64,000 nucleotides of DNA from a virus. Of the stretch, positions 28,867 through 50,473 are shown piece by piece. The position numbers and the translations under genes are program-made. The stretch covers positions 32,001 to 96,000 of the IMG/VR virus record IMGVR_UViG_3300045988_132810. One strand, given 5' to 3'. The notes below the pieces were generated by a model, which had not been told where the DNA came from, did not search any database, and worked only from the letters and a program-made list of their open reading frames with translations. Positions within the stretch are counted from its first letter, which is position 1. Every line of letters starts with the position of its first letter.

Positions 28867-28884
28867 TTCTTTCACCTGCCTTTA

Positions 28885-29976
28885 TTATGAAATACTTACT
28901 TGTCGTATAGGTTTATTAATAATTAACTCTCCGTTTACGACCTCTGCATCAAATTCATTAAATGGGCATACGCTTCCATCGTCTTCAAGCGTAAGTACAC
29001 CATTGGAGACGTCCGTACCAATTTCTAGCTTCACGTCCTTGAGTTCTCCTCTTACAATCATTTTGTGTCCCTCAACTTTGATATTAGTCCAAATTGGAGG
29101 GTTCTTAGTTGTGTCGCCTTTGATTTTTAATACCTTGCCTTCTACCCAAACGGTTAAGCCATCTTTAAGGTCATAATCATTTAGCAGGCCATCTGCTACT
29201 TTCATTGGATATCTAAACTCAATTTTTAATGTTCCGGTACCATTCGCGGAAAAATAATTAGTTCCGGGGAGCAACGTTGGAAACATAAAATTGAAATCAT
29301 CGTCAAAGATTCTCTTCTCATTCGTAGAATATACAACAAAATTATTATCTATTGTAACTGTTTCGTCCTGTTGTAAATTCTTAAACTCCGTCTCATTATT
29401 CAATGATTTGTTTTTAATGAGTAAATTTCCATGAGATGAGCCATTCTGAAATGTTAACTTTGGATAAATATAAGAATAAACGTCATCACTTTGGTTGTCT
29501 ATTGCGAATTCAGTCTCTCCTGCAATTTTGATTTCTACAGGATATACTTTTGAATACGCCCACGGACTTACTGCAGTAAATGTTGCTACGATGCCAATAA
29601 CTCTTGCATCCATCTTCTGAAGCTGCACATTCGTGAATCTACCAAGATATGAGCACACAACATCACCATCTTTGTCGCAGACATCCATCCATGCGTTGCT
29701 TCTAGAACCAGTAAGCCAACGCAATGTGTTTCTAACCTTGTATGGGCCAATATCAGACCCGTCTACTTCGATAAATGTTACAGACGGAGTTGCGACAGAA
29801 TTATATTTCGCACCATAGTCTGTGCGCATTGTACCATCATAGCTATCAGTAAAAACAGGCTCCATATCTAAGTATGAATCCACTGTCCCGTTATCTGGAT
29901 TGAATGTACTTACTACAAGCTCTAAATCATAATTTGTTTGATTGCGGAAACGAATTTTAGGATGATATATCGCCAA
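28885..29976 (-). CDS. distal tail protein (Dit-like)
   Basis: 363 aa with a TTG start after AGGAGGTG. Canonical position between the tape-measure gene and Tal. Confidence 0.6.
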   Translation of the reverse strand: MAIYHPKIRFRNQTNYDLELVVSTFNPDNGTVDSYLDMEPVFTDSYDGTMRTDYGAKYNSVATPSVTFIEVDGSDIGPYKVRNTLRWLTGSRSNAWMDVCDKDGDVVCSYLGRFTNVQLQKMDARVIGIVATFTAVSPWAYSKVYPVEIKIAGETEFAIDNQSDDVYSYIYPKLTFQNGSSHGNLLIKNKSLNNETEFKNLQQDETVTIDNNFVVYSTNEKRIFDDDFNFMFPTLLPGTNYFSANGTGTLKIEFRYPMKVADGLLNDYDLKDGLTVWVEGKVLKIKGDTTKNPPIWTNIKVEGHKMIVRGELKDVKLEIGTDVSNGVLTLEDDGSVCPFNEFDAEVVNGELIINKPIRQVSIS

Positions 29977-30053: not shown

Positions 30054-33000
30054 TTATCTAACACGATTATAAAGCTTTTTATTGATATTTTTCATATAAT
30101 TGTCCATCTGGTCTTGCACCGCCTTGGTAATGTTCTGGATGGAACTATTATCTGCTCTGTCAATATGGACAACCTCTCCGACTTGGAGGTTCAACTCAAG
30201 ATTGTTGTTAATAACATGAGGCGCACTAACAACAGGTCTAGATTGCTCTAGAACACTAGATGGATCTAGTTTGCCCCATTCCATAAGTCTTTCTGTTAGG
30301 TCTGCAGGAATAATTCCTGTTCCTTTCTTAATATAAGAAAGCCTACCTGCACCGTCTGGAACAAGCTGCAACTCTTCACCAAGCTCGTCAAGGAATGCGA
30401 ACTGGTCTTTATCAATTGATTTAGCTCCACTACTGTAACCCTCTATGTCGCTCAGACGCACCCAGCCAGTGTAGCCACCATTTCTGCCAATGAGAACTTC
30501 CGAGTCGGTTGCCTGATAAACTGTAAATGTAGATCCCGGCACCCAAGACTGCATTCTTGTTCCGTTTCCACCATCTCTAGAGAAGTGAGTCGCTGAACTC
30601 TTAACAGTTACAGATGACCCCTTAGTTGGGGCTGCTGGAGTGGATGGCTCAGTAGCTGGTGATTGCTGCGGCGTCGAAGGAGTTGGCGGAGTATACTTCG
30701 CGCTCTCAGTCGAATTCTTCTTGCTATTTGTGGCCTTAATTATGCTATCTGCGGTCTTATCAGCCTCAACTTGTAAATCTACAAGCTCTTGTTTTAATGC
30801 GCGTAATTGCTCAGTAAATGCGCTCGCAGAAGTGTCTAATTGCTCCTGATAAGTACCAATGGCATCTACGCCTTCCAGCCAAGGCTTAGTTACAGAATCA
30901 GAAAGAGTGATTCCATACTTGTCGGCTATTTCAGATAGGTTTTGTGCTAATGAATCTGTATTCGCAGCGATAACAGCATAGCTATCTTGAATGACTTGGT
31001 TCTCATTCTTAAGCGATTCATCAAGCGCATCCATTTCGTCTTGCTTGTTGTCTTGATAATTCTCAAGAGACTTGTCAAGGGCTTCTTGCTGCTTTTCAAT
31101 ACTATGGTCATAATACAGGTCGTTTAACTCGTCTTGCGCTTGCTTCAGTTCGGCTTCTAATTTTTTCTTCTGCGCAATTGCGGAAGCTGAATTGTCGCCA
31201 GAAATTACTGCAAGCCTCTTCTGAATGTCTGCAATATTCTTCTGCTGCTCGGCAACTTGCTTCGCAAAGTCATTTGCATCTTTTTGGAGGCTAAGTTCCT
31301 CTTTCTTTTTATCTATAAGCTTCGAAAGAGCGTCTATCTCCGCCTGCATAGATGTTTTGACACTTTCTATACGAGTCTTATTCAGATCAATAATAGACTT
31401 CTTCGCGGATTCTTGCGCCTCAATTGCGTCCCATTGATTCTCTTTAAGCTCGGCAAGCTTTTCGTTATACTCATCTGTGCTATAAAGCCCAGCGGAATAA
31501 TCTTTCTCCAGACGTGCAATCGCTTCGCCGTATTGCTCAACTTTAAAGTTTGCAACTTCTAGCTGCTGTGCAAGTAGACCAAGAGCAGTCACGCCATCTT
31601 TAGTCCAATTGCCAAATTCGTCTACTACTTTTTCTTCGTCAGAAACCAAGTTATACAAATGAGAAAGCTCAGAATCAACATTATCAATTTTGCTAATTAA
31701 CTTGTCAAGATTATCCCAGTAAAGGTCATTAATACTATTCTGGAAGCCTTCGATATCTTTCTTACATGAAAGGATTGAGTCGTCAACGTCATAAATGGCG
31801 TTAACCATTTCGTACCAATCATCAGTTCCAACTCTAACATCTCCAGAAGCGACAGCTTGATCTAGGATACTTTGTAGTGAAGCACGCTTATTATTTAGGT
31901 CTTCAATTTGCTTCTGAGAGTCTTTCATTAATTCCTTATAGAAGTTTTCAGAAAGTCTTTCTCCCGCTTCGTCAAGAAGATCCATCTCGGCCTGAATGAG
32001 GTTTGAGTGCTGTTCGACTAAACCAACAATATTCTCAAAGTCATCCGCAATATCATTTAGCTGTTCAAGACGTTTAGCGGAAATTTCAGCAATAGATTCT
32101 AGATAGCTATTCTCTGCATCTTCTGCTTTTGTAGACCATGTACGATATTCTTCAATGGCATCAGCAATTTCGCCTTCGCTTTCCCCGATAAAGTCTTTAA
32201 TTGCGATAGCGCCGTTCTTTGCCATTTCTTGATACTCGGCGGGAACTTTAGACAGTAGCTCCGTTGCCTTCTGGTTGTAAAGCTCTGCTGCAGCAAAATA
32301 TGTAGATGCTTTCTGTTTTTCTGCTCCGACTAAGTCATCATATAAGCTGTTCTTATCTCCAATTTGAGAAGTATCGTCAAGGAAATTCTCAATTCTATTG
32401 GTCATATGAGTAATTGCCTTCTCGATTTCTTCAAGCTTATATTCAATAAAGTCAATGGTTTGCTCTGCATCATCGGCTGCGTCAGATACATCACTTGCCG
32501 CATCAGATAGGTCACTAGCAGCATCACTTAAGTCCCAACCCATTTGAGACCAGTCTTTGTCACTGCCATCTCCCCACGCAGCATTCGCTCCAGTGTCAGT
32601 TTTCTTTGTATAAGTACCATAATTCCAGTGAGCATTGCCTTTAGCAAACGACAAGCCGCCAGTGTATGTCCCACGAGACGTGTACCCATTCTTTAATAAC
32701 TCTTCTGTCTGCTTGTGGTTATAGATTATTGCACCCTTCGGCAAATCAAGCATTTCCGTGCCATGTTCTCCAACAGTATAATAAACGCCCTTGTTTGCGT
32801 CTACTACTAGTTCACGACCAAGCTCGCCTACAATGGCATTGTGCTCATTTGCTTTTAATCCGGGCTTCTTGCCTGAATGCGCATTGCCTTTTGCCAAAGC
32901 ATTTCCAAGCGCACTAGACGCACCGTCAGGATTATAGCCACTTCCGCTTTTTGCATCTTCACGACCTTGTGTAAATTTACTCTTCAGGTTGTTCCAAAAA

Positions 33001-36000
33001 TTTCTCGCTTGTGTACTAATCCAAGAAGAAACCGATTCCCAAAGACCATTAATGGCACTAGGAACAGTTTCTGTGAAGAATGTAGAAATGCCAGTTTTAA
33101 TATTTTCTAAAGTAGTAGGTACTGTTTCTGTAAGAAATGTCCCGACTCCTTCCCAAAATTCATTCCATTTTGTCGGAAGCGTTGCTGTAAAGAATTCTAA
33201 AATCTTTTCTCCCGCTGTGACCAACGCTGGGCCAATCACTTCATCAACATAAGTGCCGACACTCTCCCAGAAAGAATGCCATTTTTCAGGAACTGTCTCG
33301 GTAAAGAATCCATACACGCTATCCCACGCCGCGCTTAAGGCTGGCGCGATTGTGCCATCAATATATTGGCCAACGCTAGTCCAAAATTCACTCCATTTTG
33401 TAGGAATTGTTGTCGTGAAGAACTCAACAACTTTATCTTTCAAAGCAATAGCGTCTTCTTTTAAATTGTTTAATTCTTCGCCAACACCATCCCAAAATTC
33501 ATCCCATTTTTCTGGAATAGTTTCTGTAAAGAATGTAACTACCGCATCTTTAAGATCGCTTGCCCATTGTTTTACTTTGTCGAAATCTTCACTAACATTA
33601 TCCCAAAACTCTCCCCATTTCTCAGGGACAGTCTCTGTAAAGAATTCTTCCACTTTCGCAGATATATATCCAACTGCGTAAGGGATGTCGCCAAGGAATT
33701 CCCCAACACTTCCCCAAAACTCGTTCCATTTTTCTGGAATCGTTTCGGTAAAGAATGTATTAACGCCTTCTTCTACATTAGCAGCCCAATCTTTTACTCC
33801 GTCAAGACATTCGCCAACACCGTTCCAGAACTCATCCCATTTTTGAGGCAATGTGTCTGTGAAAAATGTATTTATGTCTTCCCATAGTCCTTGCGCCCAT
33901 TCTTCTGCACCAGATAATTTGTCTCCAATACCGCTCCACAAATTGTCCCATACAGTTGGCAATGTTTCTGTAAAGAAAGTAGATATGCCACTCCAAATAT
34001 TGTTGGCGAATTGCTGTACCTCAACAACCACCTCGTCCACTAATGCGTTCCAACCTGCAATTACTTGATCAGGGCTTTGTGCTTCAAATCCCGTAACGTT
34101 GGAAGTAGAAGTTGTGCTTGCACTTTTTTCAGTACTCGTCGAAGTTGTACCAGAGCTTGTTTTTGTTGTATCAGTTGTTTTAGTATCTTGCTTCTTGTTT
34201 TTGTCTGGAGATTGAATGGCATCCAAAATGTTGTCAAGGACTTCTTTGACCTGAGTTATTCCATCAGTTATTGGGTCAACTTCTTGATTAGTTAACACCT
34301 CAAGTTGTTGTTCGTCATTTTTTAAATCAACATATTCTTGAATCTTCTGTTGCTGATCTTCGTCTAATTCAAGCGTTGCCGGGATCTTCCAAACGCCATC
34401 TTTATCTTGCTCTAGCTTTGGAACTACCTCAGTAACTAGAGTTGCATTTTCTTCTTTCCACTGATCAATTTTAGATTGGACATCAGTCAATACAACCTGA
34501 AAATCCATTACGGTTGGCTGTTCTAGACCATATTTAATTTTTAAAGCTTCTGCTAACTGCTCTTTTGCTTTTTCGAGCTCATCCGTCTTTATTTGGATCT
34601 CTTCATCCGAAGCTCCAGCATCTTTTAACTCTTGTAATTCTCTTGTAAGTGTTGATACATTTTCTTTTGCAGTATCAACGGTATTGTTTGCATCGATCCA
34701 AGCTTTTGTATTGTCAACAATTGCCTGCTGCGCATTATTCAACGAATCTGTAGCGCCATCAATTTCTTGCTGAATCGCATTATATTCTTCTGCATTTTCG
34801 CCAAGTGGATCTTTACCAGCCTTGAAAAACTCTTCTTGCTTCGCAAGTGCCTTGTCCAAAGAGTCGGTAGTATCTCTAAGTTTTTTGTCAAGTTCTGTCA
34901 TAGTTAGGTCAGAAACGATATCTCCCCAACTTGCATCATATTTTGACAGCTCTGTCAACATTGCAATAGTTGCGGCCTTTGTTAATCCCATTGCATTTGC
35001 AAGGTCGTCAACGCTCTTTATACTACTATCAAGAGTAAATGTGCCGTCCGCATTTTCAATAAAAGCACTAGCTTCTTTCGCGTCGGCAATAAATGCTTCT
35101 ATGTTCTTTAAGCCTATTGAAAAATTTCCATCATCATCAATAGTGAAATAGTCTGCAAACTTTGAGTTTTCAAAATAATCATCAATGGCGTCAAGACGTT
35201 CTTCAAAAGTTTTACAGTTTGCAATGACGCTCGGAGGAACTAATGCCTCACATGCCGCCTTAAATGCTTCCGTCCCAACTTTGCCACTCAACAATCCGTC
35301 GCTAATGGTCTCAAGCATTTCAACCATTGAGTCGCCATACGCCATTTCTGAATCTCTGTTTTTGGCATCTTCAAATTCATCATATGCATTGGTAACATCT
35401 GATAATTTCAACTCTAAAATTGAATATTCTTTAACTGCATTCTTGAGTGCTTGTATCTGACTACGCAGCGCGCTAATATTATCATAAGTTGCTTTTGTAA
35501 CATATCCATACGCCTTGTAATCCGCATACATTGCCTTAACAGCCTGTTGTAGTTGTTTTACAACTTTTGTATACTGCGACTGACTTTGTGCTTTCGCCGC
35601 ACTTACTGTTGCCTTTTGTTCTTTTTTCTTCTGTGCAATTAATGCTCTTAATAGACGTGTATTCTTAACGACCTTGCCATTCGTAGTATCAATTGCGTCA
35701 CCGAAGCTCTCTTCGCCAACAGTTACATCTCCAAGATACTCTTGGAGTGCAGTATAATAATCGTCAGAAATCGCTTGCCCGTCAAATGTTATGTCATTAA
35801 CTGTCTGTAACACTGACGCATACGAATCATAAGCAGAAGTAAGGCTTGCTATGTCGCTAACAGCCACAGAAGTGGCTTCACTAGTCTGTTGCATAGCACC
35901 GCTAATGTTCAAGAAATATCTTGCAACATCTTCTGCACTAATTCCAAGAGAGTCTAATTGTACTTTAAACTGTGGATTTTCAGCAATTAAGCTCTCAACC

Positions 36001-37850
36001 TCTCCAGTGACTCCTTCAATAGCAGATTCGTAATCTCCGAATTTATCAACGTCAACATTGATCTCTCCAGATTCAATTTTCGCGTTAAATGCTTCTTGGA
36101 ATGCTTGTCCTGCCTCAGAACCACGCTCGCCGAATAAGCGGTCAAGAGCAGACTCTTTTGCTCCAGCAGAACCAAACATGATTTCTGCTCGATCATTGTA
36201 ATTTTGCATCGAACTAAGAAGACCATTTACTGCCTTTTGTGCCTCTGTTAAATTGTCACCATCAAACCATTCCAAGTCGCTGACGCCATATTCTTCTTCT
36301 TTGCCTTTCATAAACTCGTCCCAATTGGACTGTGCGTCGGCATAATCTTCTTGCGCAGACTCTAAATTCTTTTCTAGCTTTTGGAACTTTTTGCTATTGG
36401 TGTCCATACCAGAGTCTAAGACATCCTGTACTTCTGCTTCCGCTTTGTCTAGTTTATCTTTGGCGTTCTTTACTTTACCTAATTCGTCTTCGAAATTGTT
36501 TGTTAAATCAGCCTCGCCAGCCGCTCGCGGCTTAAAATCTTGATCTGTATCTAATGCGCCCTTTACAGCCTCTGCTTGCTTGTTTTTCGCACGCTCTTCT
36601 CTTGCTTCTTCTAACCGAATCTGACGTTCAAGCTCGGCATTTTGCTCTTTTAATTTGTCAAGCTCTTCTTGCTCTGTAAGAGTTAATGGACCTTTAGATT
36701 CGAGCTCTTCTATACGATTCTTTGTAGTTTCTAATTCGGAGTTGAGAGACTCTATATTCGAACGAATATTGTCTAGTTCCTCACTAGTGTCTTTAAGTTC
36801 TTCTACGTAATCTTTATGAGACTTAGTTAATGCACAAATAGTCACAGTCAACGCAGCAATTGCAGCAACGGCCAAAATCGCCCAGCCAACAGGATTTGTT
36901 ACGAGCCAAGCTGCCGCAGTCGCCACTGCCTCCCAGATGCTTGCGGCCAATGCTTTAAAAGACACTATCAGTCCAGTATTCGCAGTAGTTAGCCCCATGG
37001 CAGCAATAATTGCTTCAGCGTCCGCACCAACAATTCCTTGCGTTGCAAGTGCTTCTCTAATCTTCGCTGCAGTATTTAAGTTCGTTGCAACAGTTTCTTC
37101 TCCTGCTTTACCAGTTAGGATTGTCCTTATAGCGGCTTCTTTTGTTGCATCACCAATTTTAGTCGAATTTAAAATCGCTTCTTTTACTTTTGCTCCATTT
37201 AGCGCTTCTATCGCTGCAGTTTCTCCTGCGTATGTGGCTATGTTGCTCTTGATTGCATTAGTTAACTTTGACCATAGGTCTGGCAAGAAAAACTTGCCGA
37301 GTTGGATACCAGCAATTGTAATAAGTGCGCTTTGCAACACGCCAACTTTGTCTATGATATTTACTAATCCAGTGCCAACATCCACAAGGAATTTAACAGC
37401 ATCAGACCTTATAAAATTCATCCACATTGTTTGGACTGCATTTGTAAACTGATCAATCTTTCCTTGAATACTATCCAAGTATTTTTCATTTTCGGCCATT
37501 GCACTGCCAGCAGAATCTGCAGATGTTTGCATCGCATCTTCTACTAAGTCAAAATTCTTAATAACGGCGGATAAAACATTTGCTTGTCTTTTCCCGCCTA
37601 GCAATTCTAGTGCGGCTGCTCGATTTACGTCCGTCATGTCGTCCCATACTTGAGACATTTCACGTAAAATTTCTGTAGTGTTCTTGAATGTATTCTCATC
37701 GAGCATAATGTCAACTTTACCGCCTGTTAAAGCTAACAATTTTTTCTGCAGTTCTGAGACGCTATTGGCCATGCCATCAACGTCCTCACCTGCATCTTCT
37801 AATTCTACCTTGGCTCCGCGAATACGAAGCGATAAGGTTTTCATTGCTGT
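30054..37850 (-). CDS. tail tape-measure protein, exon 2
   Basis: Begins TAMKTLSLRIRGAKVE (second half of the TP901-type tape-measure core). Followed by hydrophobic helices, long coiled coils, a Trp-rich repeat array and the C-terminal GNAHSGKKPG...IVGELGRELVV motif. Confidence 0.9.
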   Translation of the reverse strand, partial: TAMKTLSLRIRGAKVELEDAGEDVDGMANSVSELQKKLLALTGGKVDIMLDENTFKNTTEILREMSQVWDDMTDVNRAAALELLGGKRQANVLSAVIKNFDLVEDAMQTSADSAGSAMAENEKYLDSIQGKIDQFTNAVQTMWMNFIRSDAVKFLVDVGTGLVNIIDKVGVLQSALITIAGIQLGKFFLPDLWSKLTNAIKSNIATYAGETAAIEALNGAKVKEAILNSTKIGDATKEAAIRTILTGKAGEETVATNLNTAAKIREALATQGIVGADAEAIIAAMGLTTANTGLIVSFKALAASIWEAVATAAAWLVTNPVGWAILAVAAIAALTVTICALTKSHKDYVEELKDTSEELDNIRSNIESLNSELETTKNRIEELESKGPLTLTEQEELDKLKEQNAELERQIRLEEAREERAKNKQAEAVKGALDTDQDFKPRAAGEADLTNNFEDELGKVKNAKDKLDKAEAEVQDVLDSGMDTNSKKFQKLEKNLESAQEDYADAQSNWDEFMKGKEEEYGVSDLEWFDGDNLTEAQKAVNGLLSSMQNYNDRAEIMFGSAGAKESALDRLFGERGSEAGQAFQEAFNAKIESGEINVDVDKFGDYESAIEGVTGEVESLIAENPQFKVQLDSLGISAEDVARYFLNISGAMQQTSEATSVAVSDIASLTSAYDSYASVLQTVNDITFDGQAISDDYYTALQEYLGDVTVGEESFGDAIDTTNGKVVKNTRLLRALIAQKKKEQKATVSAAKAQSQSQYTKVVKQLQQAVKAMYADYKAYGYVTKATYDNISALRSQIQALKNAVKEYSILELKLSDVTNAYDEFEDAKNRDSEMAYGDSMVEMLETISDGLLSGKVGTEAFKAACEALVPPSVIANCKTFEERLDAIDDYFENSKFADYFTIDDDGNFSIGLKNIEAFIADAKEASAFIENADGTFTLDSSIKSVDDLANAMGLTKAATIAMLTELSKYDASWGDIVSDLTMTELDKKLRDTTDSLDKALAKQEEFFKAGKDPLGENAEEYNAIQQEIDGATDSLNNAQQAIVDNTKAWIDANNTVDTAKENVSTLTRELQELKDAGASDEEIQIKTDELEKAKEQLAEALKIKYGLEQPTVMDFQVVLTDVQSKIDQWKEENATLVTEVVPKLEQDKDGVWKIPATLELDEDQQQKIQEYVDLKNDEQQLEVLTNQEVDPITDGITQVKEVLDNILDAIQSPDKNKKQDTKTTDTTKTSSGTTSTSTEKSASTTSTSNVTGFEAQSPDQVIAGWNALVDEVVVEVQQFANNIWSGISTFFTETLPTVWDNLWSGIGDKLSGAEEWAQGLWEDINTFFTDTLPQKWDEFWNGVGECLDGVKDWAANVEEGVNTFFTETIPEKWNEFWGSVGEFLGDIPYAVGYISAKVEEFFTETVPEKWGEFWDNVSEDFDKVKQWASDLKDAVVTFFTETIPEKWDEFWDGVGEELNNLKEDAIALKDKVVEFFTTTIPTKWSEFWTSVGQYIDGTIAPALSAAWDSVYGFFTETVPEKWHSFWESVGTYVDEVIGPALVTAGEKILEFFTATLPTKWNEFWEGVGTFLTETVPTTLENIKTGISTFFTETVPSAINGLWESVSSWISTQARNFWNNLKSKFTQGREDAKSGSGYNPDGASSALGNALAKGNAHSGKKPGLKANEHNAIVGELGRELVVDANKGVYYTVGEHGTEMLDLPKGAIIYNHKQTEELLKNGYTSRGTYTGGLSFAKGNAHWNYGTYTKKTDTGANAAWGDGSDKDWSQMGWDLSDAASDLSDAASDVSDAADDAEQTIDFIEYKLEEIEKAITHMTNRIENFLDDTSQIGDKNSLYDDLVGAEKQKASTYFAAAELYNQKATELLSKVPAEYQEMAKNGAIAIKDFIGESEGEIADAIEEYRTWSTKAEDAENSYLESIAEISAKRLEQLNDIADDFENIVGLVEQHSNLIQAEMDLLDEAGERLSENFYKELMKDSQKQIEDLNNKRASLQSILDQAVASGDVRVGTDDWYEMVNAIYDVDDSILSCKKDIEGFQNSINDLYWDNLDKLISKIDNVDSELSHLYNLVSDEEKVVDEFGNWTKDGVTALGLLAQQLEVANFKVEQYGEAIARLEKDYSAGLYSTDEYNEKLAELKENQWDAIEAQESAKKSIIDLNKTRIESVKTSMQAEIDALSKLIDKKKEELSLQKDANDFAKQVAEQQKNIADIQKRLAVISGDNSASAIAQKKKLEAELKQAQDELNDLYYDHSIEKQQEALDKSLENYQDNKQDEMDALDESLKNENQVIQDSYAVIAANTDSLAQNLSEIADKYGITLSDSVTKPWLEGVDAIGTYQEQLDTSASAFTEQLRALKQELVDLQVEADKTADSIIKATNSKKNSTESAKYTPPTPSTPQQSPATEPSTPAAPTKGSSVTVKSSATHFSRDGGNGTRMQSWVPGSTFTVYQATDSEVLIGRNGGYTGWVRLSDIEGYSSGAKSIDKDQFAFLDELGEELQLVPDGAGRLSYIKKGTGIIPADLTERLMEWGKLDPSSVLEQSRPVVSAPHVINNNLELNLQVGEVVHIDRADNSSIQNITKAVQDQMDNYMKNINKKLYNRVR
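33030..34010 (-). repeat. in-frame tandem repeat array in the tape-measure gene (about 10 x about 37 aa, FFTETxPxKWxEFWxxVG)
   Basis: Repeated peptide units are visible in the translation. They also generate a stack of spurious + strand ORFs. Confidence 0.8.
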
Positions 37851-38163
37851 CGATCTATTACTTTCCCACGAAAACCAAATGGTACTGACCGATTATGTAA
37901 TCGGCGGCAAGGTCTTTCGGCCTTGCTCTACGATTTTATTTTTAGATTATTGTCGTAGTCTAGACTGGATCTTCACCCTCATTCCCGTCATTATACGGAG
38001 TAGGGGAACAGCGGAACCTGTTATGTTACCATAAAAGGTCTTACAGTCGTTACGGATACTTTGCACACTGCAAAGTCTTTCCTCGGTCTTGACCATCTCT
38101 GGCTTTTAACCGATATAGCTGTTTTCTTTCAATATATTACTATATTGTTAGGCTATTATGTTA
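37851..38163 (-). ncRNA. putative ORF-less group I intron in the tape-measure gene (313 nt)
   Basis: Excision gives ...VVQNPESVG|TAMKTLSLRIRG in frame. The exon ends in U and the intron ends in G. 5-bp P1 UAGGU/GCCUA with U.G at the splice site. The 3' end AGTAATAGATCG|ACAGC nearly matches that of the CotH-gene intron. Confidence 0.8.
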
Positions 38164-41100
38164 ACCTACAGATTCTGGATTTTGCACAACGCTATTGGCG
38201 GCTGTAATTAACCCAATAGACTCATCAAGTGTATTGCCAGCCTCTGCCATAGCACTAGCAGAACGCAATAGCGCTTGTCCAATACCTGATGAACTGATTG
38301 CAAAGTGGTTTCCCACCTCGTTGAATTTATCTACGATTCCCATAGCATGAGACGCTTCAATACCAAATCCGTGCATTGTAGAAATGATACTGTCAGAAGC
38401 CTCACCAATATCGGCTAGGTCATCACCAACGTTATAATAAACGGAAGCGGCCTTTGCCAAGTCAGATGCTTGTTCAATGTTATATCCTAACCTTGCGAAA
38501 TCTGCTGTAGCATTAGTAAAATCTTTAACGGTAGAGCCGATCTGCCCAGCAGTTTTAGACGCATCTTGTAAGAATCTCTTATAACTTTCATCAGTTTCGT
38601 CAGTAACTTTTTTCAGTTCAGTTAACGCTGCGTCAATTTCTCTTACATATGTAATACCTTGCTTAATTTGAGCAACAGTTTTATACACCATATTTGCGCC
38701 AGTAAAGTATGTAAGAATTTCACCAGACTTTTTCTTAACATTGCTAAAGAAAGAGCCAAGCGTACTACTTGCTTTGCCCATATTCTTAGCGGAAGCATTA
38801 ATAGCATTTCCCGCTTGATTAAACGATGCAGTTAGTTTTTCTACTTCGCCATTGCCATTCTTTATTGTAAAAGTAACCTTGGAATAGTTGTCAGCGAACT
38901 GAATAGATTTTTTATCTAACCCATCAAAAGAATTAGCAAATGCTTCTAATTCACTTCTTCTGCTTGCTTCGTCGCCAATATCAAAGCCATCAGAGACTGC
39001 ACGAGTGATATTACCAACTTTGTTTTTCATCTCTTCGGACTTCTTAATGATATTTTCAATTGCTTTGCCATATTTATTAAATGACTCAACTGCACTATCA
39101 AACTCTGCGGCCTTTTGCTTACCCAAATCCGAAGTGATGTCTATGTTTGCAAGCTCTTTTTGAAGTGTAATTATTCTTTGATATGCTTGCTCGTATTGCT
39201 GTAATTGAGTAGTAACCCCGGAGGCATTGGCATAGCCTTTGCTATTAACGCTATTAATTAACCCAGTATGCTTTGTTTCGACTTGTCCGACAACATCTGC
39301 CCCATACAAAGTATTGTTTTGCTTTGCTGAGTCCTTCTTTACCTTTGCGTACTGTTCAAAATCGCTCATGAGCTGCTTTGTCGCAGCACTCAACCTTTGC
39401 ATGTCATCTTCTGACACTTTACCAAAGGCTTCTTCGGACTTTGTTAGATCTTGTATCTCCTTTGATAGAGTTTCATATCTACTCTTTAACTGGCCAAGAT
39501 CACTATCTTTATCTACGAAGACTTCCGTATCAATTTTCCTAAAAGCAGAAGATAGCTTTTGATTTGCATCTATTAATGTTTTATAATTGTCTAGTTCTTT
39601 ATAGCTGTCGTTAGAACTTTTAGAACTACTAGAATGAGAAGTTATCCCTTTTCTTGTGCCCTTGCTGGAATCAGCTTCATTTCCAAGTGATTCAGCAGTT
39701 TTATCCGCGCTATCTTTTACATTTTGGTTTGCATTAGCAAAATCATTTTTCGCTTGAGTGGCTGACGCGAAAGCCTCGCTCGCTTCTCTCGCCTTTTCTA
39801 TTTCTTTTTCTATAGCAACCGCAGAAGCTTCCGCACTTTCCTTAACTCGTGCATTAGCTTCAACAAACTGATTTTTTTGTTCCGTCGCCGCCGCAAATGA
39901 TTCCTGTACACCACTAACGCTGGCTACTTCGGGAGCAGTCGTTGCAGGATCTCCTGTATTTTGACCATTAGCAATCTCACCAGTTGCTGTCTTCGAAACC
40001 TTTGACGCATCGCTCTGATTTTGTTTTTCTTTTTCTTTTGTAATTTGCTGTTGCGTTTCCAATTGTTGCTTTGCTTCTTCATTTTGTTGTTTCTCTACTG
40101 CCAACTCTTGCTCTGCCGCATCGGTGCCTTTTTGCTTTGCTTCTGTCGCACTACCTAATTGTACTTTTGCTTCAGCAAGCTTGGTTTTTAATTCATCAAT
40201 TACAGAAGACAAATTTTCAATTTTTGCTCTATATTCATCTACGACATCATTTGAAGTCATATTATCGACTTCGCTCATCGGGACAGAATTATCTAGAGCA
40301 TTTTGGATGTCGTAATAACTATTCTTCCACGAATCTAAAGCACCTTCCATACGAAGGATTTCTTCTTCCAATTCTTGTACTTGTTTTTGTGCCGCGTCAA
40401 GCTCGGAAGCGTCAACAGGATTTGTCGGAATAGCATTTAATTTTTCTTTAAGAGCGGCAATTTCTTGCATAAGCTCTTTTTCTTTTTCAAGCTGCGCGGT
40501 TTGATTGTCCATTTGATTAGACTGAGTTGAAGGCTGCCCAGACTGAATCTGATTAAGCTTTTCTTGCGCGGTAGTCTCCTCGTTGATAGCCTCAGTAGTT
40601 TTTTGATGTGCTTCTGCTGCTTGCGCTTCGATTTCCTTAATTCTAGCTACGCTTTGATTCCAAGCATTAGTAGAGTCAATTTCTCCACTCTCGAACGAGC
40701 TAAAAATATCTTTAAACTTGTCCCAATCGGCGGTGTGCGATGGATTTAATGTTGCCAATAAACTTTTTAATTTTTCAATTGGTGCAACAGAATTTTCTCC
40801 ATTCTTTTGTATTTCGGCTAAATAAGATGACAACTCTGGTAGCTGTTCCATTGTATATGTCTTAACAGTCGAAGCTAACCCATTGTCTGTAAACGCCTTA
40901 TCTAGGGCTTGATTGACTTTTTCATTAAACGCAGCAATCAACTGTTCATATGAAATGCCCGCTTGCGCCGCTTTTTCTTCTGCTCCTTTTATTAATCCAA
41001 CTTCTCCGTCATTATATTCCATCAGAGGAAATTCTTTTGTAGCTGCTTTTAAATTTTGAGAGTAAGATTCTCCAATTTTGATGGCCATTTCTTTAGAAAT

Positions 41101-42840
41101 GCCAGTAAAATCAATTGTTTTAACAACGCCATCTGCAATGATACCATTAATTTTTGTGCCTTGGTCATAAAACAACTTGGTAAATGAATTAATATCCGAC
41201 GGCGTAAATGCACTCATTCCATCTGGGTGATTGTGCAAAGACATTACGATATTTTCTTTTAGATTGTTGACAAGTTGTGATACTATTGCGTCTGTATCTA
41301 CCTGAAAATCCTTCCCAGAAAAAGAACTTACCACTTTGTCCGCGCCAAAAAGCGTCATAGACTCTTTTGCGTCGCCGCTACCTTTTGAATAACCAACCTC
41401 TTGCCCCGACGCAACATTTAATAATTCTTGTAGCTCGCCAGTTACACCGCTAACTTCTTTTGCGCTTTTTTGTGCAGCCGTAGGAATTTCAACATTAAGT
41501 AGCTCACAGATTTTAGAAAGTGCTTCGGCTCCGGTAATGTCTCCAAAGTCTAAATCTGAAAAGATCTGTTCAATTGCAGTCCCTGCCTCTTTAGACGCCT
41601 GAGAAACTTCTTTAATTTCATCGACAAGTGCCATTAACTTCTCTTCGTTTTGGGCCCCTTCGTCTGTCCCTGACAATAACGAGACATATTCTTTAACTCT
41701 TTTATTTAACTCATCATATAAAGAAATCTTTTTTTCTTCCGAAGTTCCATTTTCTTTTTCTACAAAATCATCTGGATTTTCAATGTTTTTAAGGTTGTCT
41801 ATTTCTAAATTAATATCTGCAATTTTTTGCTTATACTCGCTCTTTATCTTTTCAAGCGTAGCATTCTGCTTTGCTCTAAACTCTTCTAAAAACTCTTCGG
41901 CCCTATCATATTCTCTAGAATTTGCAGCATATGCCGTAGCGTCATCGCTACCATGCTCGAACACATAATCCATTGTGCTCTTTAACTGGCTTGCTGCCTT
42001 TATTTTTCTTACAAAAGCTTCTTCTTTCCCTGACTTGCCAGTTCTCTCTAATTCCGCAAGTTCTTGCTCTGCTTTTTTAAAATCTTCAACAAGGCCAGCT
42101 AGAACAGTAGTATCATTTTTCTTTGTTGTTTTTACTCTTTTGTCTTTGCCATTAAAAATGTCTAATGCTTCTTGATATCTTGCCTTTTGTTTTTCCAGTT
42201 CATCAATTTGTCGTTGAACTTCTTCGGAAATTTTATTACCTGCATCTTTGATATCGCTAGACACTTCATCCCCAGCAGACTTGATATTATCTCCAACTTT
42301 AGATAAATCAATCTCGCCAAATGCGATATTTAATTTACCATTTAACTCGCTGGCATATTGGATTAATGCATTAAACTGTTCTTCAACACTTTTAGTGTTA
42401 AAAAGGTCTAAGTCAATTTGTTTATCAATGCCAACGTTCTTGAGGATTGTATTTAATTGCTCTGCGTAGCTCAGTAATTCTTTCGTCGCACCTTTGTCTT
42501 TTAAATTAACACCACTAAGCCCAGTAAAAACGTTTTTAGACAACTCTGAAATCTGAGACATCTGTTCAACCATTTTATCAAAAGACTTCATATATCCGCT
42601 ATTAAGCTTATCTCCAAGACCTGCTTTGACGGAATCCAAATCTTTCCTAAGTGCCTTAACAGCATCGTCCATAGCGACAAACTGCTTAATAAAATTATTA
42701 AGATTTCCACGCTTGCCAATGTTTGCTAAAACTCCATCCACCTGTTCAGCTTGAGTCTTACATGCAACAAGGCTACTCATAAGATCATCAATACTATATT
42801 TAATTTTCGAAGTATAACTCGCTTCTGCCAAAAGAATCAC
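38164..42840 (-). CDS. tail tape-measure protein, exon 1
   Basis: 1559 aa, mostly coiled coil. Ends with the first half of the tape-measure core (...FAISSSGIGQALLRSASAMAEAGNTLDESIGLITAANSVVQNPESVG). Has an embedded JAB/MPN-like motif HNHPDGMSAFTPSD. Confidence 0.85.
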
Positions 42841-42848: not shown

Positions 42849-43406
42849 TTATAAATATACTTTTAGCAATTGAGCTATTGTTTTTTGAAAATTATCTTCA
42901 AAATATCTACTGCCGTAATTGTTAATAAAATCTTTTAAAAATTCGTCTGGAATTTCTTTGCCAACAGTTTCACCATACATATATTCTCCGTCTTTAAAAT
43001 ATGTCCATGGGTGTTCGCCTTGTAAGAAATTCTCGAAGACATAATCGCCTTCAACTTGGCCACCACTTTCCCAAGAACCACCGCCTTGGTGTTTACTTGA
43101 GTTACTATGGTATGCACCTTCCAACGGAGCAGAATTCATATCAATATTTGTTGTTAGAGTAAATGTTCTTCCTCTTTTCTTTAAATCAGAATTTACTTTA
43201 TAAATATCATACAAATTATGTTGTCTCCCATACTTTGTATAAGCTCCATTTTTGTATTCATAATATTTGTCTACTGCCGTTTTTGCTGCGTCATTAAAAT
43301 CTTTTTCTGCTTGCATTCTACATATGTTTCCTGCAATTTCACTAACAGTTTCGACATTATCTATTAGTTTTTGTATAGCATCGCCTAATGTTTTTTCTGC
43401 GGCCAT
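42849..43406 (-). CDS. hypothetical protein (upstream of the tape-measure gene)
   Basis: 185-aa ORF with AGGAG upstream. Its position suggests a tail-assembly role, but I recognise no motif. Confidence 0.55.
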   Translation of the reverse strand: MAAEKTLGDAIQKLIDNVETVSEIAGNICRMQAEKDFNDAAKTAVDKYYEYKNGAYTKYGRQHNLYDIYKVNSDLKKRGRTFTLTTNIDMNSAPLEGAYHSNSSKHQGGGSWESGGQVEGDYVFENFLQGEHPWTYFKDGEYMYGETVGKEIPDEFLKDFINNYGSRYFEDNFQKTIAQLLKVYL

Positions 43407-43430
43407 ATGCCATCAACTCCTATAAAATAA

Positions 43431-43967
43431 TTATTTTAATTTATCAAGTGTGCTTAAAAGCTCATCAATATCTGCACCTTCTGGAAGGATGCTATTGATA
43501 TCGAAACCATCAACCTTCTTAGCAAGAGCATCTGCTAAAGTTGTCAGGCTTGAACTAATTCCATTAGCCATCTGCGCAAACGAAGCCTCAATTGAATTCT
43601 GACGCATTAATTTTTTCTCTTCATAATGCAACACTTCCTCAACATGGTTGTAATCCTTCCTGCACAGTTGCTCAACTGTGTCTAAAATATCATTGCTGCG
43701 TAGCATGTCATACTCCTTTAGCAGCGCTTCGAAATCTTCGCCAATATCTACGCCTGTATAGGCATTGAACGCAAACATAGAAAAATAAATATTTTTTTCA
43801 AAATCGTCCACATAGAAATAGCCATTATTGTCCGCAGAACATTTTTCTAAAGTGCGTAATGCAATATCATGTTTAGTCTGAATTGGAATATACCAAACCT
43901 TAATCATATCTGCTGCATTGTTGAACTGTCCTTCTTTAACTTTCTTAACAAATGTATTAACTTTCAT
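43431..43967 (-). CDS. hypothetical protein (tail assembly chaperone position)
   Basis: ORF 43431-43991. ATG 43967 follows GGAGGAA. Confidence 0.5.
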   Translation of the reverse strand: MKVNTFVKKVKEGQFNNAADMIKVWYIPIQTKHDIALRTLEKCSADNNGYFYVDDFEKNIYFSMFAFNAYTGVDIGEDFEALLKEYDMLRSNDILDTVEQLCRKDYNHVEEVLHYEEKKLMRQNSIEASFAQMANGISSSLTTLADALAKKVDGFDINSILPEGADIDELLSTLDKLK

Positions 43968-44033
43968 AATTGTTCCTCCATTTTTATTCAAAATTTTATA
44001 TATTAAATAACGTTTTGTTATTAATTTTCGTAT

Positions 44034-44534
44034 TTAATCTTCGCCCCAAACTTCTTCGTTGGCGAAATTATAAATTTTATGCGCCGCAACTCCTATGCAA
44101 ATTGCTTCACATTCATCTTCTGATAGATCAAGACCAAAATTTTCTTTTACATAATCAATACTCTGTTGCTTAAGCTCTTGGCGTTTTACTTTCGCCCCCT
44201 GAGAATATCCTAATGCTTTGCGCCATTGGCTTGGCAACAAAATATGCACATTGACATTATGAGCTTCCGCATAACCAATTATCATACCAGCCAATCTTGC
44301 CAAAATTATCATAGTCGCTGGGTTCGATTGTTGTTGCACATTTTCTAGAACAAGTTTCTCTGGTTTATACTTTTTAATAACCTTCCAAAGTTCTTTCGCC
44401 ATTTCAAAAGATCTTTTATCTGTTTCTAATTTGCTCTTGTTCATATCAACAACGCCAGATTCTATATATTGACCGTTTTCAAATATGGCATAACCAGAAC
44501 GACGTGTGCTTTGATCAAAACTTATGACACGCAT
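44034..44534 (-). CDS. ruvC: RuvC-like Holliday junction resolvase
   Basis: RVISFDQSTRRSGYAIFE (first catalytic Asp), LVLENV (Glu) and SEDECEAICIG (Asp) fit the RuvC fold signature. Confidence 0.8.
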   Translation of the reverse strand: MRVISFDQSTRRSGYAIFENGQYIESGVVDMNKSKLETDKRSFEMAKELWKVIKKYKPEKLVLENVQQQSNPATMIILARLAGMIIGYAEAHNVNVHILLPSQWRKALGYSQGAKVKRQELKQQSIDYVKENFGLDLSEDECEAICIGVAAHKIYNFANEEVWGED

Positions 44535-44584
44535 AACAATTCCTCCTTTCCGAGAGATTCATATTTACACTAATTTTAAATATA

Positions 44585-44608
44585 AAAAGAAGAAACCATT
44601 TGGCTTCT
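44585..44608 (-). terminator. possible rho-independent terminator after the lysis genes
   Basis: On the - strand: AGAAGCC-AAAT-GGTTTCT hairpin followed by TCTTTTTATATTT. Confidence 0.45.
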
Positions 44609-44639
44609 CCTTTAAACTACGATATACAATTTTTTGTTA

Positions 44640-45587
44640 TTAACTGTATAGAGCATCTACTCTGTTTTGTACTATTTGATAGTCATATCCCGCTGCTTCA
44701 AGGCGTGCTTGACGTTCTAAACCATTTCCCCATTCGCCTTGATATACCTCCAATACAATTTCATCTAATGTTTTACCTGAAGCAACAACTGATTCCGTAT
44801 TTGGAACAAGAATCTTTTGTCCTATATAAATAACATTAGGATCAGAAATTCCATTGTAGGAAGCAAGTTGTTGATATGTAATGCCATATTTTGTGGCAAT
44901 GTCAGAAAGAGTGTCACCAGATTTTACAGTATAAACTGTTTCTGTTTGACTTTGCGAAAAAGTTAATCCATTTTTACCAGCTTCTCTAATCAATGCAGGA
45001 TAATCAAAATAAGAAATGTTCATATCAACGCACCCAGAAATACCATTGACAATTCCAGAACTAGAATACTGCCAAATTCCATAGTCCTTGTTATACTGAC
45101 ATTCAGAATTATATTGAGCAATCCATCTTGCCTTAGTGTCATACCAAGAATCAGTCAGATATGCCTCATTCCAATATAAATTGGCATAAATACCAACCCA
45201 ATAACCAGCGTCTTCTAAAATGCCAACAAATTTTTTAGACATTTGAAGAATTAAATCTTGACTACATTTCCCAGTAGTATTAACGTCTTCTAAATCATAA
45301 TAAACGGGATATTCAAGTTTACGACCTTTTATCAATCTAAGTACATGTGTTGCTTCCGAAGCAGCTTTTTCTACTGTATCTGCATAACTGTACAAATACA
45401 CACCATAAGGTATACCAACTCTTTCGCATTCTAAAGCATTCCTTTTAAACCAAATATCATCTTGTTCTTCTAAGTTCATTCCATAGCCACAGCGAAGAAT
45501 TGCAAAATCAATTTCATCCTTTTTTACTGCATCCCAATCAATTTGTCCTTGCCATTCGCTCACATCAACACCTTTTAATTTTTTCAT
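44640..45587 (-). CDS. endolysin: GH25 muramidase with LysM and Cpl-7-like wall-binding modules
   Basis: GH25 start [31 protein letters not shown]. Lys[31 protein letters not shown]-terminal [31 protein letters not shown] (Cpl-7-like). Confidence 0.9.
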
Positions 45588-45605
45588 ATTATCCCTCCTT
45601 TTTGT

Positions 45606-50469: not shown

Positions 50470-50473
50470 TTAA

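What the first reader, a model, noticed from the sequence alone, without database searches (positions are those of the whole stretch)
30054..42840. The spliced tape-measure protein would be about 4157 aa
Exon 1 contributes 1559 aa and exon 2 contributes 2598 aa. The product is dominated by coiled-coil sequence and also has TM-like helices and the canonical C-terminal tape-measure motif.

With the usual rule of thumb of about 0.15 nm of tail per tape-measure residue, this would imply a tail of roughly 600 nm. That figure is an upper bound, because globular inserts do not count toward length. Either the tail is exceptionally long or much of the protein has cargo or enzymatic roles.
Basis: inference. 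Interest (0 to 1): 0.7.

Follow-up and report, generated by a model that had tools for sequence, protein, structure and literature searches.

The report
Intron-split giant phage tape-measure gene
Two huge neighbouring reading frames are one phage tail-length "ruler" gene of about 4,150 codons interrupted by a 313-base self-splicing-type intron, which predicts a tail of about 0.6 micrometres; both the split and the giant size have precedents, so this is a striking new example, not a new kind of thing.

Summary
Minus-strand ORFs 42840..38164 (1559 aa) and 37850..30054 (2598 aa) are two halves of one tape-measure protein (TMP) gene, separated by exactly 313 nt (38163..37851).

Evidence that it is one gene:
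- Joining the halves restores an unbroken TMP core (Pfam PF10145 4-200/201; TIGR01760; PHROG 4211 positions 770|772).
- Relatives 98% identical have an empty site (GTAGGT|ACAGC).
- One relative (L046) encodes the whole protein as a single 4182-codon frame, 86% identical over residues 1-4157.

The insert belongs to a family of structured RNAs with group I (IA-like) architecture: 97.9% of cells paired, 36/60 pairs compensatory, U.G at the 5' splice site, terminal G. Rfam's group I model does not detect it. The family occupies at least five sites in this TMP core.

The likely start is TTG at 42831, giving 4154 aa. Two measured homologues give 0.158-0.160 nm/aa, so the predicted tail is about 620-665 nm. 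If the ~1100-aa N-terminal extension does not count, it is about 460-490 nm. I found no enzymatic domain, and the "canonical C-terminal motif" could not be verified.

Spliced TMP genes (ICP1) and a 5,002-aa TMP (P23-45) are published. Two relatives encode 5996- and 6360-aa TMPs.

The parts
38164..42840 (-). Exon 1 of the tape-measure gene: 1559 codons from the listed GTG, or 1556 from the likelier TTG at 42831. It ends ...NPESVG (GGT).
   Evidence: ORF list; sequence; conserved RBS and start context; PHROG 4211 profile positions 497-770 at aa 1293-1558.
37851..38163 (-). 313-nt group I-type intron with no ORF. It begins with the stop TAA immediately after the 5' splice site and ends in G.
   Evidence: Exact boundaries from empty-site alleles. 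Fold z = -4.4. Family covariation: 97.9% paired, 36/60 pairs compensatory. Co-conversion gradient in the flanks. No Rfam match.
30054..37850 (-). Exon 2: 2598 codons plus the stop. It begins TAMKTLSLRIRG.
   Evidence: PHROG 4211 profile positions 772-1389 at exon-2 aa 1-686.
38149..38153 (-). Internal guide sequence GCCUA. It pairs with exon-1 end UAGGU (38164-38168) to form P1, with a U.G wobble at the splice site.
   Evidence: Sequence. The guide co-varies with the exon in L084 and L086. U.G in 7/7 aligned members.
38007..38123 (-). P3 (AACAGC 38118-38123 with GCUGUU 38007-38012). It encloses P4-P6 and crosses P7, forming the pseudoknot.
   Evidence: 6/6 pairs covary, 100% paired (helix 3).
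37963..38048 (-). P7 (GACUG 38044-38048 with CAGUC 37963-37967). It encloses P7.1 (38017-38038, GUAA loop), the 3' strand of P3, and P8 (37976-38005).
   Evidence: P7 is invariant in 9/9 members; P7.1 covaries in 9/9 pairs.
37889..37958 (-). Peripheral helices P9 (37928-37958), P9.1 with a GAAA loop (37907-37926), and P9.2 (37889-37904).
   Evidence: helices 9-11: 4, 3 and 4 pairs with compensatory change.
39502..42840 (-). N-terminal extension (aa 1 to about 1113) ahead of the first match to any tape-measure profile.
   Evidence: No Pfam or PHROG match before aa 1114. Model gives 71% helix and no strand at low confidence. Homologous over its full length in L046 and others.
37413..38673 (-). 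Conserved tape-measure core (PF10145 / TIGR01760), aa 1390-1705 of the spliced protein, split by the intron.
   Evidence: Exon 1 alone matches PF10145 positions 5-132/201 at 51.9 bits. Joined, it matches 4-200/201 at 80.7 bits, and TIGR01760 6-301/349 at 105.9 bits.
36819..36914 (-). Hydrophobic, membrane-helix-like stretch, aa 1872-1903.
   Evidence: Kyte-Doolittle 19-residue mean up to 2.44.
32967..34013 (-). Nine tandem 37-38-aa repeats (FFTETxPxKWxEFW...), aa 2839-3187.
   Evidence: predicted helical.
32514..32960 (-). Non-helical segment, aa 3190-3338, including the internal GELGRELVV motif.
   Evidence: pLDDT 24-31; no family match.
30456..30617 (-). Small beta unit (SH3-like by eye), aa 3971-4024, near the C-terminus.
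   Evidence: Four strands in the low-confidence model; SH3 matches are sub-threshold only, E about 0.1.
42849..43991 (-). Two upstream ORFs of 185 and 186 aa. By position they are candidate tail-assembly chaperones.
   Evidence: no family match. The same ORF pair (185 + 192 aa) precedes the gene in L064 and L079. The function is inferred from position only.
23770..29976 (-). Downstream tail-tip genes: distal tail protein (28885-29976) and a 1701-aa minor tail protein (23770-28875).
   Evidence: PHROG 33 Dit and Pfam DUF6558/DUF6558_C; PHROG 6211 minor tail protein.

Best explanation
Window 42840..30054 (minus strand) is a single tail tape-measure gene of a large siphovirus of gut Clostridia, about 150 kb, whose tape measure belongs to the same family as SPbeta YomI. 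The gene is interrupted in the middle of its conserved core domain by a 313-nt ORF-less group I-type intron of IA-like architecture. Inferred step: the intron folds and splices itself out of the late transcript. The exon-1 end UAGGU pairs with the guide sequence GCCUA, placing a U.G pair at the cleavage site, and the intron's terminal G marks the 3' site. Splicing joins ...NPESVG to TAMKTLSLRIRG... and yields one protein of 4154 aa (TTG start) or 4157 aa (GTG start). Inferred from family behaviour: the protein acts as the tail-length ruler over most of its length, anchored at the tail tip next to the Dit and Tal proteins encoded just downstream, and tube subunits polymerise along it. At the 0.158-0.160 nm per residue measured for two homologues, this predicts a tail of about 620-665 nm. 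Shown here: one gene, exact insertion boundaries, a conserved covarying RNA structure, mobility of the intron, tape-measure identity, the existence of uninterrupted orthologues of the same size, and a mostly helical prediction for the modelled parts. Inferred only: splicing in vivo, and the tail length.
For: One gene: PF10145 is truncated in exon 1 alone (5-132/201, 51.9 bits) and complete after joining (4-200/201, 80.7 bits). TIGR01760 matches 6-301/349 at 105.9 bits. PHROG 4211 runs 497-770 in exon 1 and 772-1389 in exon 2. 114 phage records cover at least 80% of the junction-spanning query in one place. Empty sites in L008/L018 (98% aa identity) and in L004, L005 and L009 give GTAGGT|ACAGC. 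L046 has one 4182-codon frame 86% identical over q1-4157, and other orthologues have 4033-4276 codons.

Intron: fold z = -4.4. Nine family members from different sites and genomes give 97.9% paired cells against 30-37% when partners are slid, 36/60 compensatory pairs and 0/500 shuffles. P3 and P7 cross; U.G is present in 7/7 aligned members; all nine end in G. The guide sequence co-varies with the exon in L084 and L086. ORFs of larger members sit in the P6 loop. The copy is identical in five genomes, and a further locus (L056) differs by one base, although their exons have diverged. Exon divergence peaks at the insertion site in empty alleles (13, 8, 6, 4, 1 mismatches per 60 nt) and is 0 in occupied ones.

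Ruler: PMBT24 has 1508 aa and a 238 nm tail (PMC11035940). Sundance has 2528 aa and a 403.7 nm tail (PMC4909266), and its core starts about 720 aa in, so an N-terminal extension counts there. P23-45 has 5,002 aa and an 800 nm tail (10.1101/2022.12.01.518664). Modelled parts are 68% helix. Orthologue lengths stay within about 3% of the window's although some internal segments are non-homologous. Context: Dit and a Tal-like protein lie downstream.
Against: Rfam's group I model (RF00028) gives no match even at E <= 10, so the class assignment rests on my own structure. There is no transcript or splicing data. P7 is invariant, so it neither supports nor contradicts the fold, and the guanosine-binding site cannot be tested. 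I saw no convincing P10 pairing. Both AlphaFold models have low confidence (pLDDT 46 and 43, single sequence), and aa 1201-2959 was not modelled. About 470 modelled residues are non-helical (aa 448-516, 945-981, 1056-1078, 3190-3338, 3935-4128). No relative of this size has a measured tail. In Basilisk-like phages, tail length did not track TMP length exactly (PMC6145125).
Confidence: 0.8

Rival explanations
1. It is one spliced protein, but only the part from the tape-measure core to the C-terminus (about 3,040 aa) measures the tail. The roughly 1,100-aa N-terminal extension is cargo, an ejected protein or a processed pro-region, as with the N-terminal RNA polymerase of P23-45 gp96. The tail would then be about 460-490 nm.
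For: No tape-measure profile matches before aa 1114. The extension varies among homologues: the core starts at about aa 85 in PMBT24, 720 in Sundance and 1380 here. Residues 458-709 are replaced by unrelated sequence in L052 and L057. A precedent for an N-terminal enzyme fused to a giant TMP exists (PMC10770324).
Against: No enzymatic or other domain was found by Pfam, PDB sequence search or the large protein database. There is no catalytic motif apart from a lone HNH tripeptide. The low-confidence model is 71% helix with no strand. In Sundance, and in P23-45 itself, the full length including the extension fits 0.16 nm/aa (PMC4909266; 10.1101/2022.12.01.518664).
Confidence: 0.15
2. The two ORFs are translated as independent proteins: exon 1 stops at TAA, exon 2 starts at its ATG (37844), and no splicing occurs.
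For: A stop codon directly follows exon 1 and an ATG lies two codons into exon 2. Gene callers list the pieces separately in related genomes.
Against: The break bisects PF10145/TIGR01760. Empty-site and single-ORF orthologues exist. The insert is a conserved covarying RNA, not a spacer. No Shine-Dalgarno-like sequence lies close upstream of the ATG.
Confidence: 0.03
3. The gene is dead: an intron that cannot splice has inactivated the tape measure in a defective phage.
For: No experimental evidence of splicing. The intron has no ORF of its own.
Against: Both exons remain open over 4.7 and 7.8 kb. The same intron occurs in at least five other contigs of 83-157 kb with intact exons. All helices are intact in the window copy.
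Confidence: 0.02

Closest known systems
Vibrio phage ICP1 tape-measure gene interrupted by a spliced intron (Barth et al. 2023, PMC10448857)
   Same: A tape-measure gene is split into two ORFs by an intron, and splicing restores a full-length protein. That paper calls the TMP a frequently interrupted gene, and intron content varies between isolates.
   Different: The ICP1 intron carries an HNH-3 homing endonuclease gene and its splicing was shown by RNA-seq and RT-PCR. The window's intron has no ORF and splicing is only inferred. The host gene here is several times longer, and the same intron family occupies at least five sites in the core.
Thermus phage P23-45 / P74-26 gp96, 5,002-aa tape measure with an 0.8-0.9 um tail (PMC10770324, PMC10034513)
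   Same: A giant tape measure with a long N-terminal region ahead of the recognisable TMP part and with membrane-type segments. The whole-length ratio is about 0.16 nm/aa.
   Different: The P23-45 N-terminus is a demonstrated two-barrel RNA polymerase and the protein has a metallopeptidase domain. No enzyme domain was found here. No sequence homology was tested or claimed. The host is a mesophilic gut Firmicute, not a thermophile, and the P23-45 gene is not described as interrupted.
Long tape measures of the same family: Brevibacillus phage Sundance gp35 (2528 aa), Bacillus SPbeta YomI, Enterocloster phage PMBT24 (1508 aa)
   Same: Homologous core (38%, 26% and 34% identity over the 380-aa core, each in one tblastn piece). 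A RuvC-like gene lies upstream as in PMBT24, and DUF6558 Dit lies downstream. The L044 sister clade carries SPbeta-type Pfam families (YomU_Tube, YomW, YonB).
   Different: The window's protein is 1.6-2.8 times longer and is interrupted by an intron. Sundance gp35 and YomI are annotated with a lytic transglycosylase; no such domain was detected here. Two separate endolysin genes lie upstream instead.
Phage group I introns of subgroup IA (T4 td/nrdB/sunY type; named from my own knowledge, not compared here)
   Same: Compact size, P7.1 between P7 and the 3' strand of P3, the ORF (when present) in the P6 loop, a stop codon just inside the intron, insertion in the most conserved part of an essential gene, and co-conversion of the flanks.
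   Different: No sequence-level or covariance-model match to Rfam RF00028. ORFs in larger family members match no Pfam homing-endonuclease family.

Membership tests
Phage tail tape-measure protein (TP901 / PhageMin_Tail type) | Conserved core domain PF10145 / TIGR01760 above the curated cut-off | tested here: met
   Joined exons: PF10145 80.7 bits (cut-off 33.2) and TIGR01760 105.9 bits (cut-off 28.8). PHROG 4211 E = 7e-52 and 4.5e-40 for the two exons.
Phage tail tape-measure protein (TP901 / PhageMin_Tail type) | Position in the tail module, directly upstream of the distal tail protein and tail-tip protein | tested here: met
   Dit (PHROG 33, DUF6558) at 28885-29976 and a minor tail protein at 23770-28875 follow immediately.
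Phage tail tape-measure protein (TP901 / PhageMin_Tail type) | Preceded by tail-assembly chaperone genes with a programmed frameshift | tested here: inconclusive
   Two ORFs of 185 and 186 aa lie upstream and are conserved in position in relatives, but they match no family. I did not look for a slippery site.
Phage tail tape-measure protein (TP901 / PhageMin_Tail type) | Long, mostly alpha-helical protein with hydrophobic segments | tested here: met
   68% helix over the 2398 residues modelled, at low confidence. Hydrophobic stretch at aa 1872-1903. aa 1201-2959 was not modelled.
Phage tail tape-measure protein (TP901 / PhageMin_Tail type) | Protein length sets tail length | not testable with these tools
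   Only indirect support: homologues at 0.158-0.160 nm/aa (PMC11035940; PMC4909266).
Group I intron | P1 helix between the 5' exon end and an internal guide sequence, with a U.G pair at the splice site | tested here: met
   UAGGU/GCCUA in the window. U.G in 7/7 aligned members. The guide co-varies with the exon in L084 (GUGGGU/GCCCAC) and L086 (GUCGGU/GCCGAC).
Group I intron | Terminal G at the 3' splice site | tested here: met
   The boundary fixed by empty sites ends ...GAUCG. All nine family members end in G.
Group I intron | Conserved core of P3-P9 with the P3/P7 pseudoknot and a P4-P6 domain | tested here: met
   Strand order is P3 5', P4-P6, P7 5', P7.1, P3 3', P8, P7 3', P9. 60 pairs are 97.9% paired, 36 with compensatory change, and slid controls give 30-37%. 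The structure is my own proposal, derived partly from these sequences.
Group I intron | Match to the curated covariance model (Rfam RF00028) | tested here: not met
   No match at gathering score for the window or six related loci, and none at E <= 10 on the 801-nt region. Membership therefore rests on architecture, not on the curated model.
Group I intron | Guanosine-dependent self-splicing | not testable with these tools
   Needs in vitro transcription and a splicing assay, or RNA from infected cells.
Group I intron | Mobility: presence/absence polymorphism at a precise site, with co-conversion of the flanks | tested here: met
   Empty and occupied alleles. Divergence gradient toward the site. 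Larger family members carry ORFs, but none matched a known endonuclease family.

The most novel reading that the evidence does not exclude
This clade of gut Clostridia siphoviruses builds the longest tails of any mesophilic phage: about 0.65 um for the window's phage. Its relatives with uninterrupted 5996-aa and 6360-aa tape measures (L064, L079) would exceed the current record holders P23-45 and P74-26 in both protein length (5,002 aa) and tail length (about 0.95-1.0 um predicted). Total length would be under selection even where internal modules have been swapped. In addition, the tape-measure core is a dedicated homing hotspot for a group I intron lineage that current covariance models do not recognise.
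Probability: 0.4. Interest if true: 0.7.

Novelty: new member of a known kind. Interest (0 to 1): 0.5.

Why it matters
Annotation: automatic gene callers split this gene and its relatives into unnamed or partly named fragments. PMBT24's relative CB457P1 was described as having a differently organised tape measure (PMC11035940). Recognising the intron family would correct many gut-virome annotations, and Rfam currently misses it.

Biology: a 4,150-aa ruler predicts a tail of about 0.6 um in a gut phage, and relatives reach 6,360 aa. That raises the question of what such tails are for in Clostridia hosts and how such long flexible tubes assemble without the thermophile adaptations studied in P74-26.

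Evolution: at least five insertion sites for one intron family within about 250 codons, with a visible co-conversion tract, make a compact natural system for studying intron homing and exon mosaicism in an essential structural gene.

Tried and rejected
1. JAB/MPN metalloprotease in the N-terminal extension. The motif HNHPDGMSAFTPSD at aa 536 looked like a JAMM signature. It has no Pfam match even at E <= 10, no PDB sequence match, no homologues in the 5.8-billion-protein search, and no beta-strand in the model. Dropped.

2. Two copies of a C-terminal tape-measure motif (aa 3233 GELGRELVV... and aa 4046 DELGEELQLV...). BLASTP between the two regions gives E = 33. This is only a by-eye resemblance and I did not use it.

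3. 'Canonical C-terminal motif'. The last 218 aa match no annotated phage TMP and no Pfam family.

4. Many introns in NCBI contig VOFK01004061 (L043). Most breaks there are abutting frame changes with no gap, so they are probably assembly indels. Only the 475-nt site-B insertion is real.

5. Homing endonucleases in the larger introns. No Pfam endonuclease family matched; the only hits were DUF2726 and zinc ribbons.

6. The full-length 4157-aa query to the large protein database timed out.

7. The host gene of the L081 intron copy: no long frame could be restored across it.

8. Solved structures: no homologue for the core or the C-terminal 1198 aa; only a borderline vimentin coiled-coil hit.

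9. I did not run fold searches on the two models, because low-confidence models give meaningless matches.

10. Catalytic motif scan: no HExxH, CxxC or P-loop.
Full report
**What is there.** On the minus strand, ORF 42840..38161 (1559 aa) and ORF 37844..30054 (2596 aa from its ATG) are separated by about 316 nt. Exon 1 ends ...AAT CCA GAA TCT GTA GGT, followed at once by TAA. The second frame is open two codons upstream of its ATG and reads TAMKTLSLRIRG. The listed GTG sits inside the Shine-Dalgarno sequence of AGGAGGTGATTCTTTTG, a context conserved in nine orthologues. The TTG at 42831 is therefore the likelier start, giving 4154 aa.

**One gene, not two.**
- Exon 1 alone matches Pfam PhageMin_Tail only over profile positions 5-132 of 201 (51.9 bits).
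- A 380-aa piece spanning the proposed junction matches positions 4-200 (80.7 bits) and TIGR01760 tape_meas_TP901 positions 6-301 of 349 (105.9 bits).
- PHROG 4211, a 2625-position tape-measure profile, aligns positions 497-770 to the end of exon 1 and 772-1389 to the start of exon 2.
- With the junction-spanning piece as a tblastn query, 114 phage records cover at least 80% of it in one place. They include Brevibacillus phage Sundance (annotated TMP of 2528 aa), Enterocloster phage PMBT24 (1508 aa) and SPbeta-type yomI genes.

**Empty sites and full-length orthologues.** IMG/VR holds about 30 related contigs of 83-168 kb.
- L008 and L018 are 98% identical in protein across the site. They, and L004, L005 and L009, read GTAGGT|ACAGC with nothing in between. 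This fixes the insertion at exactly 313 nt, window 38163..37851.
- L046 carries a single stop-free frame of 4182 codons that aligns to residues 1-4157 of the spliced product at 86% identity in one tblastn segment.
- Other orthologues have single frames of 4033, 4037, 4043, 4120, 4246 and 4276 codons.
- The spliced product is therefore the normal form of this protein.

**The insert is a group I-type intron.**
- It folds far better than shuffled controls (z = -4.4).
- The relatives carry insertions at at least five different points of the same core: between core residues 71/72, 130/131, 179/180 (the window's site) and 257/258, and within 191-226.
- These insertions share a conserved 5' core and a conserved 3' core, and the larger ones hold an ORF in between.
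- A scan of viral contigs for the core motif found more members. Two sit at the same codon boundary in much more divergent tape-measure genes: L084 (NPEAVG|TAMKTVSARIRG) and L086 (DADSVG|TAFKTISMRIR). In L085 the insertion is 6 nt downstream.
- I aligned nine members with the variable loop removed (alignment A3) and wrote down a structure: P1, P2, P3, P4, P5, P6, P7, P7.1, P9, P9.1 and P9.2. P8 was seen by eye but left out of the count because MAFFT misaligned it.
- On that structure 97.9% of 481 cells form standard pairs, against 30-37% when partners are slid by 1-3 columns. 36 of 60 pairs show changes on both sides, and no shuffle out of 500 reaches any observed measure.
- P3 covaries at 6/6 pairs and P7.1 at 9/9. 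P7 (GACUG/CAGUC) is invariant.
- The last exon base U pairs with a G of the guide in all seven aligned members. By eye, the guides of L084 and L086 change together with their exons.
- The strand order gives the P3/P7 pseudoknot. P7.1 lies between P7 and the 3' strand of P3, the ORFs lie in the P6 loop, and every member ends in G. From my own knowledge, this is the architecture of subgroup IA phage introns.
- Caveats: Rfam's group I model finds nothing, even at E <= 10. The structure was derived partly from these same sequences. Nothing here shows catalysis.

**Mobility.** The 313-nt copy is identical in five genomes, and the copy in a further locus (L056) differs by one base, although their exon 1 sequences are only 86-95% identical. 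L050 and L060 have an empty site and are nearly identical to the window 240-300 nt away. Their mismatches rise to 4, 6, 8 and 13 per 60 nt approaching the site from upstream, with 5 in the first 60 nt downstream. Occupied alleles show 0. That gradient is the expected trace of co-conversion during intron homing, or of target-site immunisation. ORFs in the larger introns match no known endonuclease family.

**The protein.**
- Residues 1 to about 1113 match no tape-measure profile. They are homologous in the orthologues.
- The core is at aa 1390-1705.
- A strongly hydrophobic stretch follows at aa 1872-1903.
- Nine tandem 37-38-aa aromatic repeats occupy aa 2839-3187.
- Single-sequence AlphaFold models of aa 1-1200 and 2960-4157 are of low confidence (pLDDT 45.7 and 42.9), so only the secondary structure is used. 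They give 71% and 65% helix, helices up to 132 residues, no strand in the N-terminal part, and one small beta unit at aa 3971-4024.
- Non-helical stretches total about 470 residues.
- No enzymatic domain, lytic domain or catalytic motif was found. This differs from Sundance gp35 and YomI, which are annotated with a lytic transglycosylase, and from P23-45 gp96, which has an RNA polymerase and a metallopeptidase (PMC10770324).
- The 'canonical C-terminal motif' could not be verified.

**Context.** Downstream lie a distal tail protein and a 1701-aa minor tail protein. Upstream lie two ORFs of about 185 aa (chaperone candidates by position only), a RuvC-like resolvase as in PMBT24, and two endolysins. 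A sister clade (L044) carries SPbeta-type Pfam families (YomU_Tube, YomW, YonB). Its own tape measure is split into 641 and 1418 aa around a 1.8-kb insert. Bacterial-genome hits are MAGs of Clostridia, Faecalimonas and Eubacteriales. The nearest public sequences are human-faecal contigs.

**Tail length.** This is inference.
- Two homologues with measured tails give 238 nm / 1508 aa = 0.158 nm/aa for PMBT24 (PMC11035940) and 403.7 nm / 2528 aa = 0.160 nm/aa for Sundance (PMC4909266).
- P23-45 gives 800 nm / 5,002 aa = 0.16 nm/aa, with its N-terminal enzyme included (10.1101/2022.12.01.518664).
- Applied to 4154-4157 aa, this gives 656-665 nm. The 0.15 nm rule of thumb gives 623 nm. If only the part from the first tape-measure match to the end counts, the figure is 457-487 nm.
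- Orthologue lengths stay within about 3% of the window's although some internal segments are non-homologous. This fits selection on length but does not prove it.
- In Basilisk-like phages, tails did not track TMP length exactly (PMC6145125).

**Comparison with what is known.** Intron-split tape-measure genes with demonstrated splicing are published for ICP1, where the TMP is called a frequently interrupted gene (PMC10448857). A 5,002-aa tape measure is published for P23-45. Gut phages compared with SPbeta have reported TMPs of 3,149-3,209 aa (PMC10607447). The finding is therefore a new member of known kinds. What stands out is the size, the density of intron sites from one family that Rfam does not detect, and the two relatives with ATG-initiated ORFs of 5996 and 6360 aa. 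Those two ORFs are longer than the 5,002-aa P23-45 protein, the largest tape measure I found in the papers searched.

Noticed in passing
L079:1814-20896 and L064:2636-20626 (IMGVR_UViG_3300045988_129163 and _150864): Homologous tape-measure ORFs of 6360 and 5996 aa, ATG-initiated and uninterrupted, each preceded by the same pair of 185- and 192-aa ORFs. Both are longer than the 5,002-aa P23-45 protein. The region matching window aa 2137-2787 occurs twice in each, which suggests an internal duplication. They predict tails of about 0.95-1.0 um at 0.16 nm/aa.
   Followed up: partly
L050:8812-10000; L053:10037-10511; L058:10708-12446; L078:9873-11440; L073:7535-8557 and 8765-10000: The tape-measure core of this phage group carries related introns at at least five distinct sites. 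Individual genomes hold zero, one or two of them in different combinations: site A only, A+B, A+C, B only, or C only as in the window.
   Followed up: yes
L044:11927-13711 (ENA PEHR16-1 scaffold_2): In a sister clade with SPbeta-type genes, the tape measure is split into 641 aa and 1418 aa around a 1.8-kb insert. The insert carries a reverse-strand 195-aa ORF with multiple zinc ribbons. Hundreds of database proteins of about 635 aa are this exon-1-like fragment. I did not determine whether the insert belongs to the same intron family.
   Followed up: partly
L081:2034-2288 (IMGVR_UViG_3300013947_000056): A 255-nt member of the same intron family, with P3 AUGGAC/GUCCAU, lies next to a coiled-coil ORF. 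I could not restore a long reading frame across it, so its host gene is unresolved.
   Followed up: partly
L043 (NCBI GCA_009741655.1, VOFK01004061.1), locus 4937-17778: This contig is 100% identical to the window over TMP aa 1-1510, then drops to 71%, and it carries the site-B intron instead of the site-C intron. Several abutting frame changes look like assembly indels. It shows that the gene is a recombination mosaic with breakpoints near intron sites.
   Followed up: partly
window 51667-53639 (minus strand): Three tandem ORFs of 214, 215 and 214 aa with no Pfam match. They may be paralogues in the structural region upstream of the tail genes.
   Followed up: no
window 46976-60607 (minus strand): Several fibre or receptor-binding-type genes lie upstream of the lysis genes, where tube and head-tail genes would be expected. 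Two have a Gp10_C domain (one with Mtd_N, one with Phage_fiber_rpt), a third has Mtd_N only, one has Listeria-Bacteroides repeats and one has DUF6273. No tail tube gene was identified in the part of the window I annotated.
   Followed up: partly
window 44034-46609 (minus strand): A RuvC-like resolvase and two endolysin genes (GH25 + LysM, and an amidase) sit between the fibre genes and the tape-measure gene. The resolvase placement is shared with Enterocloster phage PMBT24. The tape measure itself has no detectable lytic domain.
   Followed up: partly
window 37678-38034 (plus strand): A 118-aa GTG-initiated ORF on the opposite strand overlaps the intron and the start of exon 2. It is most likely spurious, because the region is explained by the intron and the exon.
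   Followed up: no
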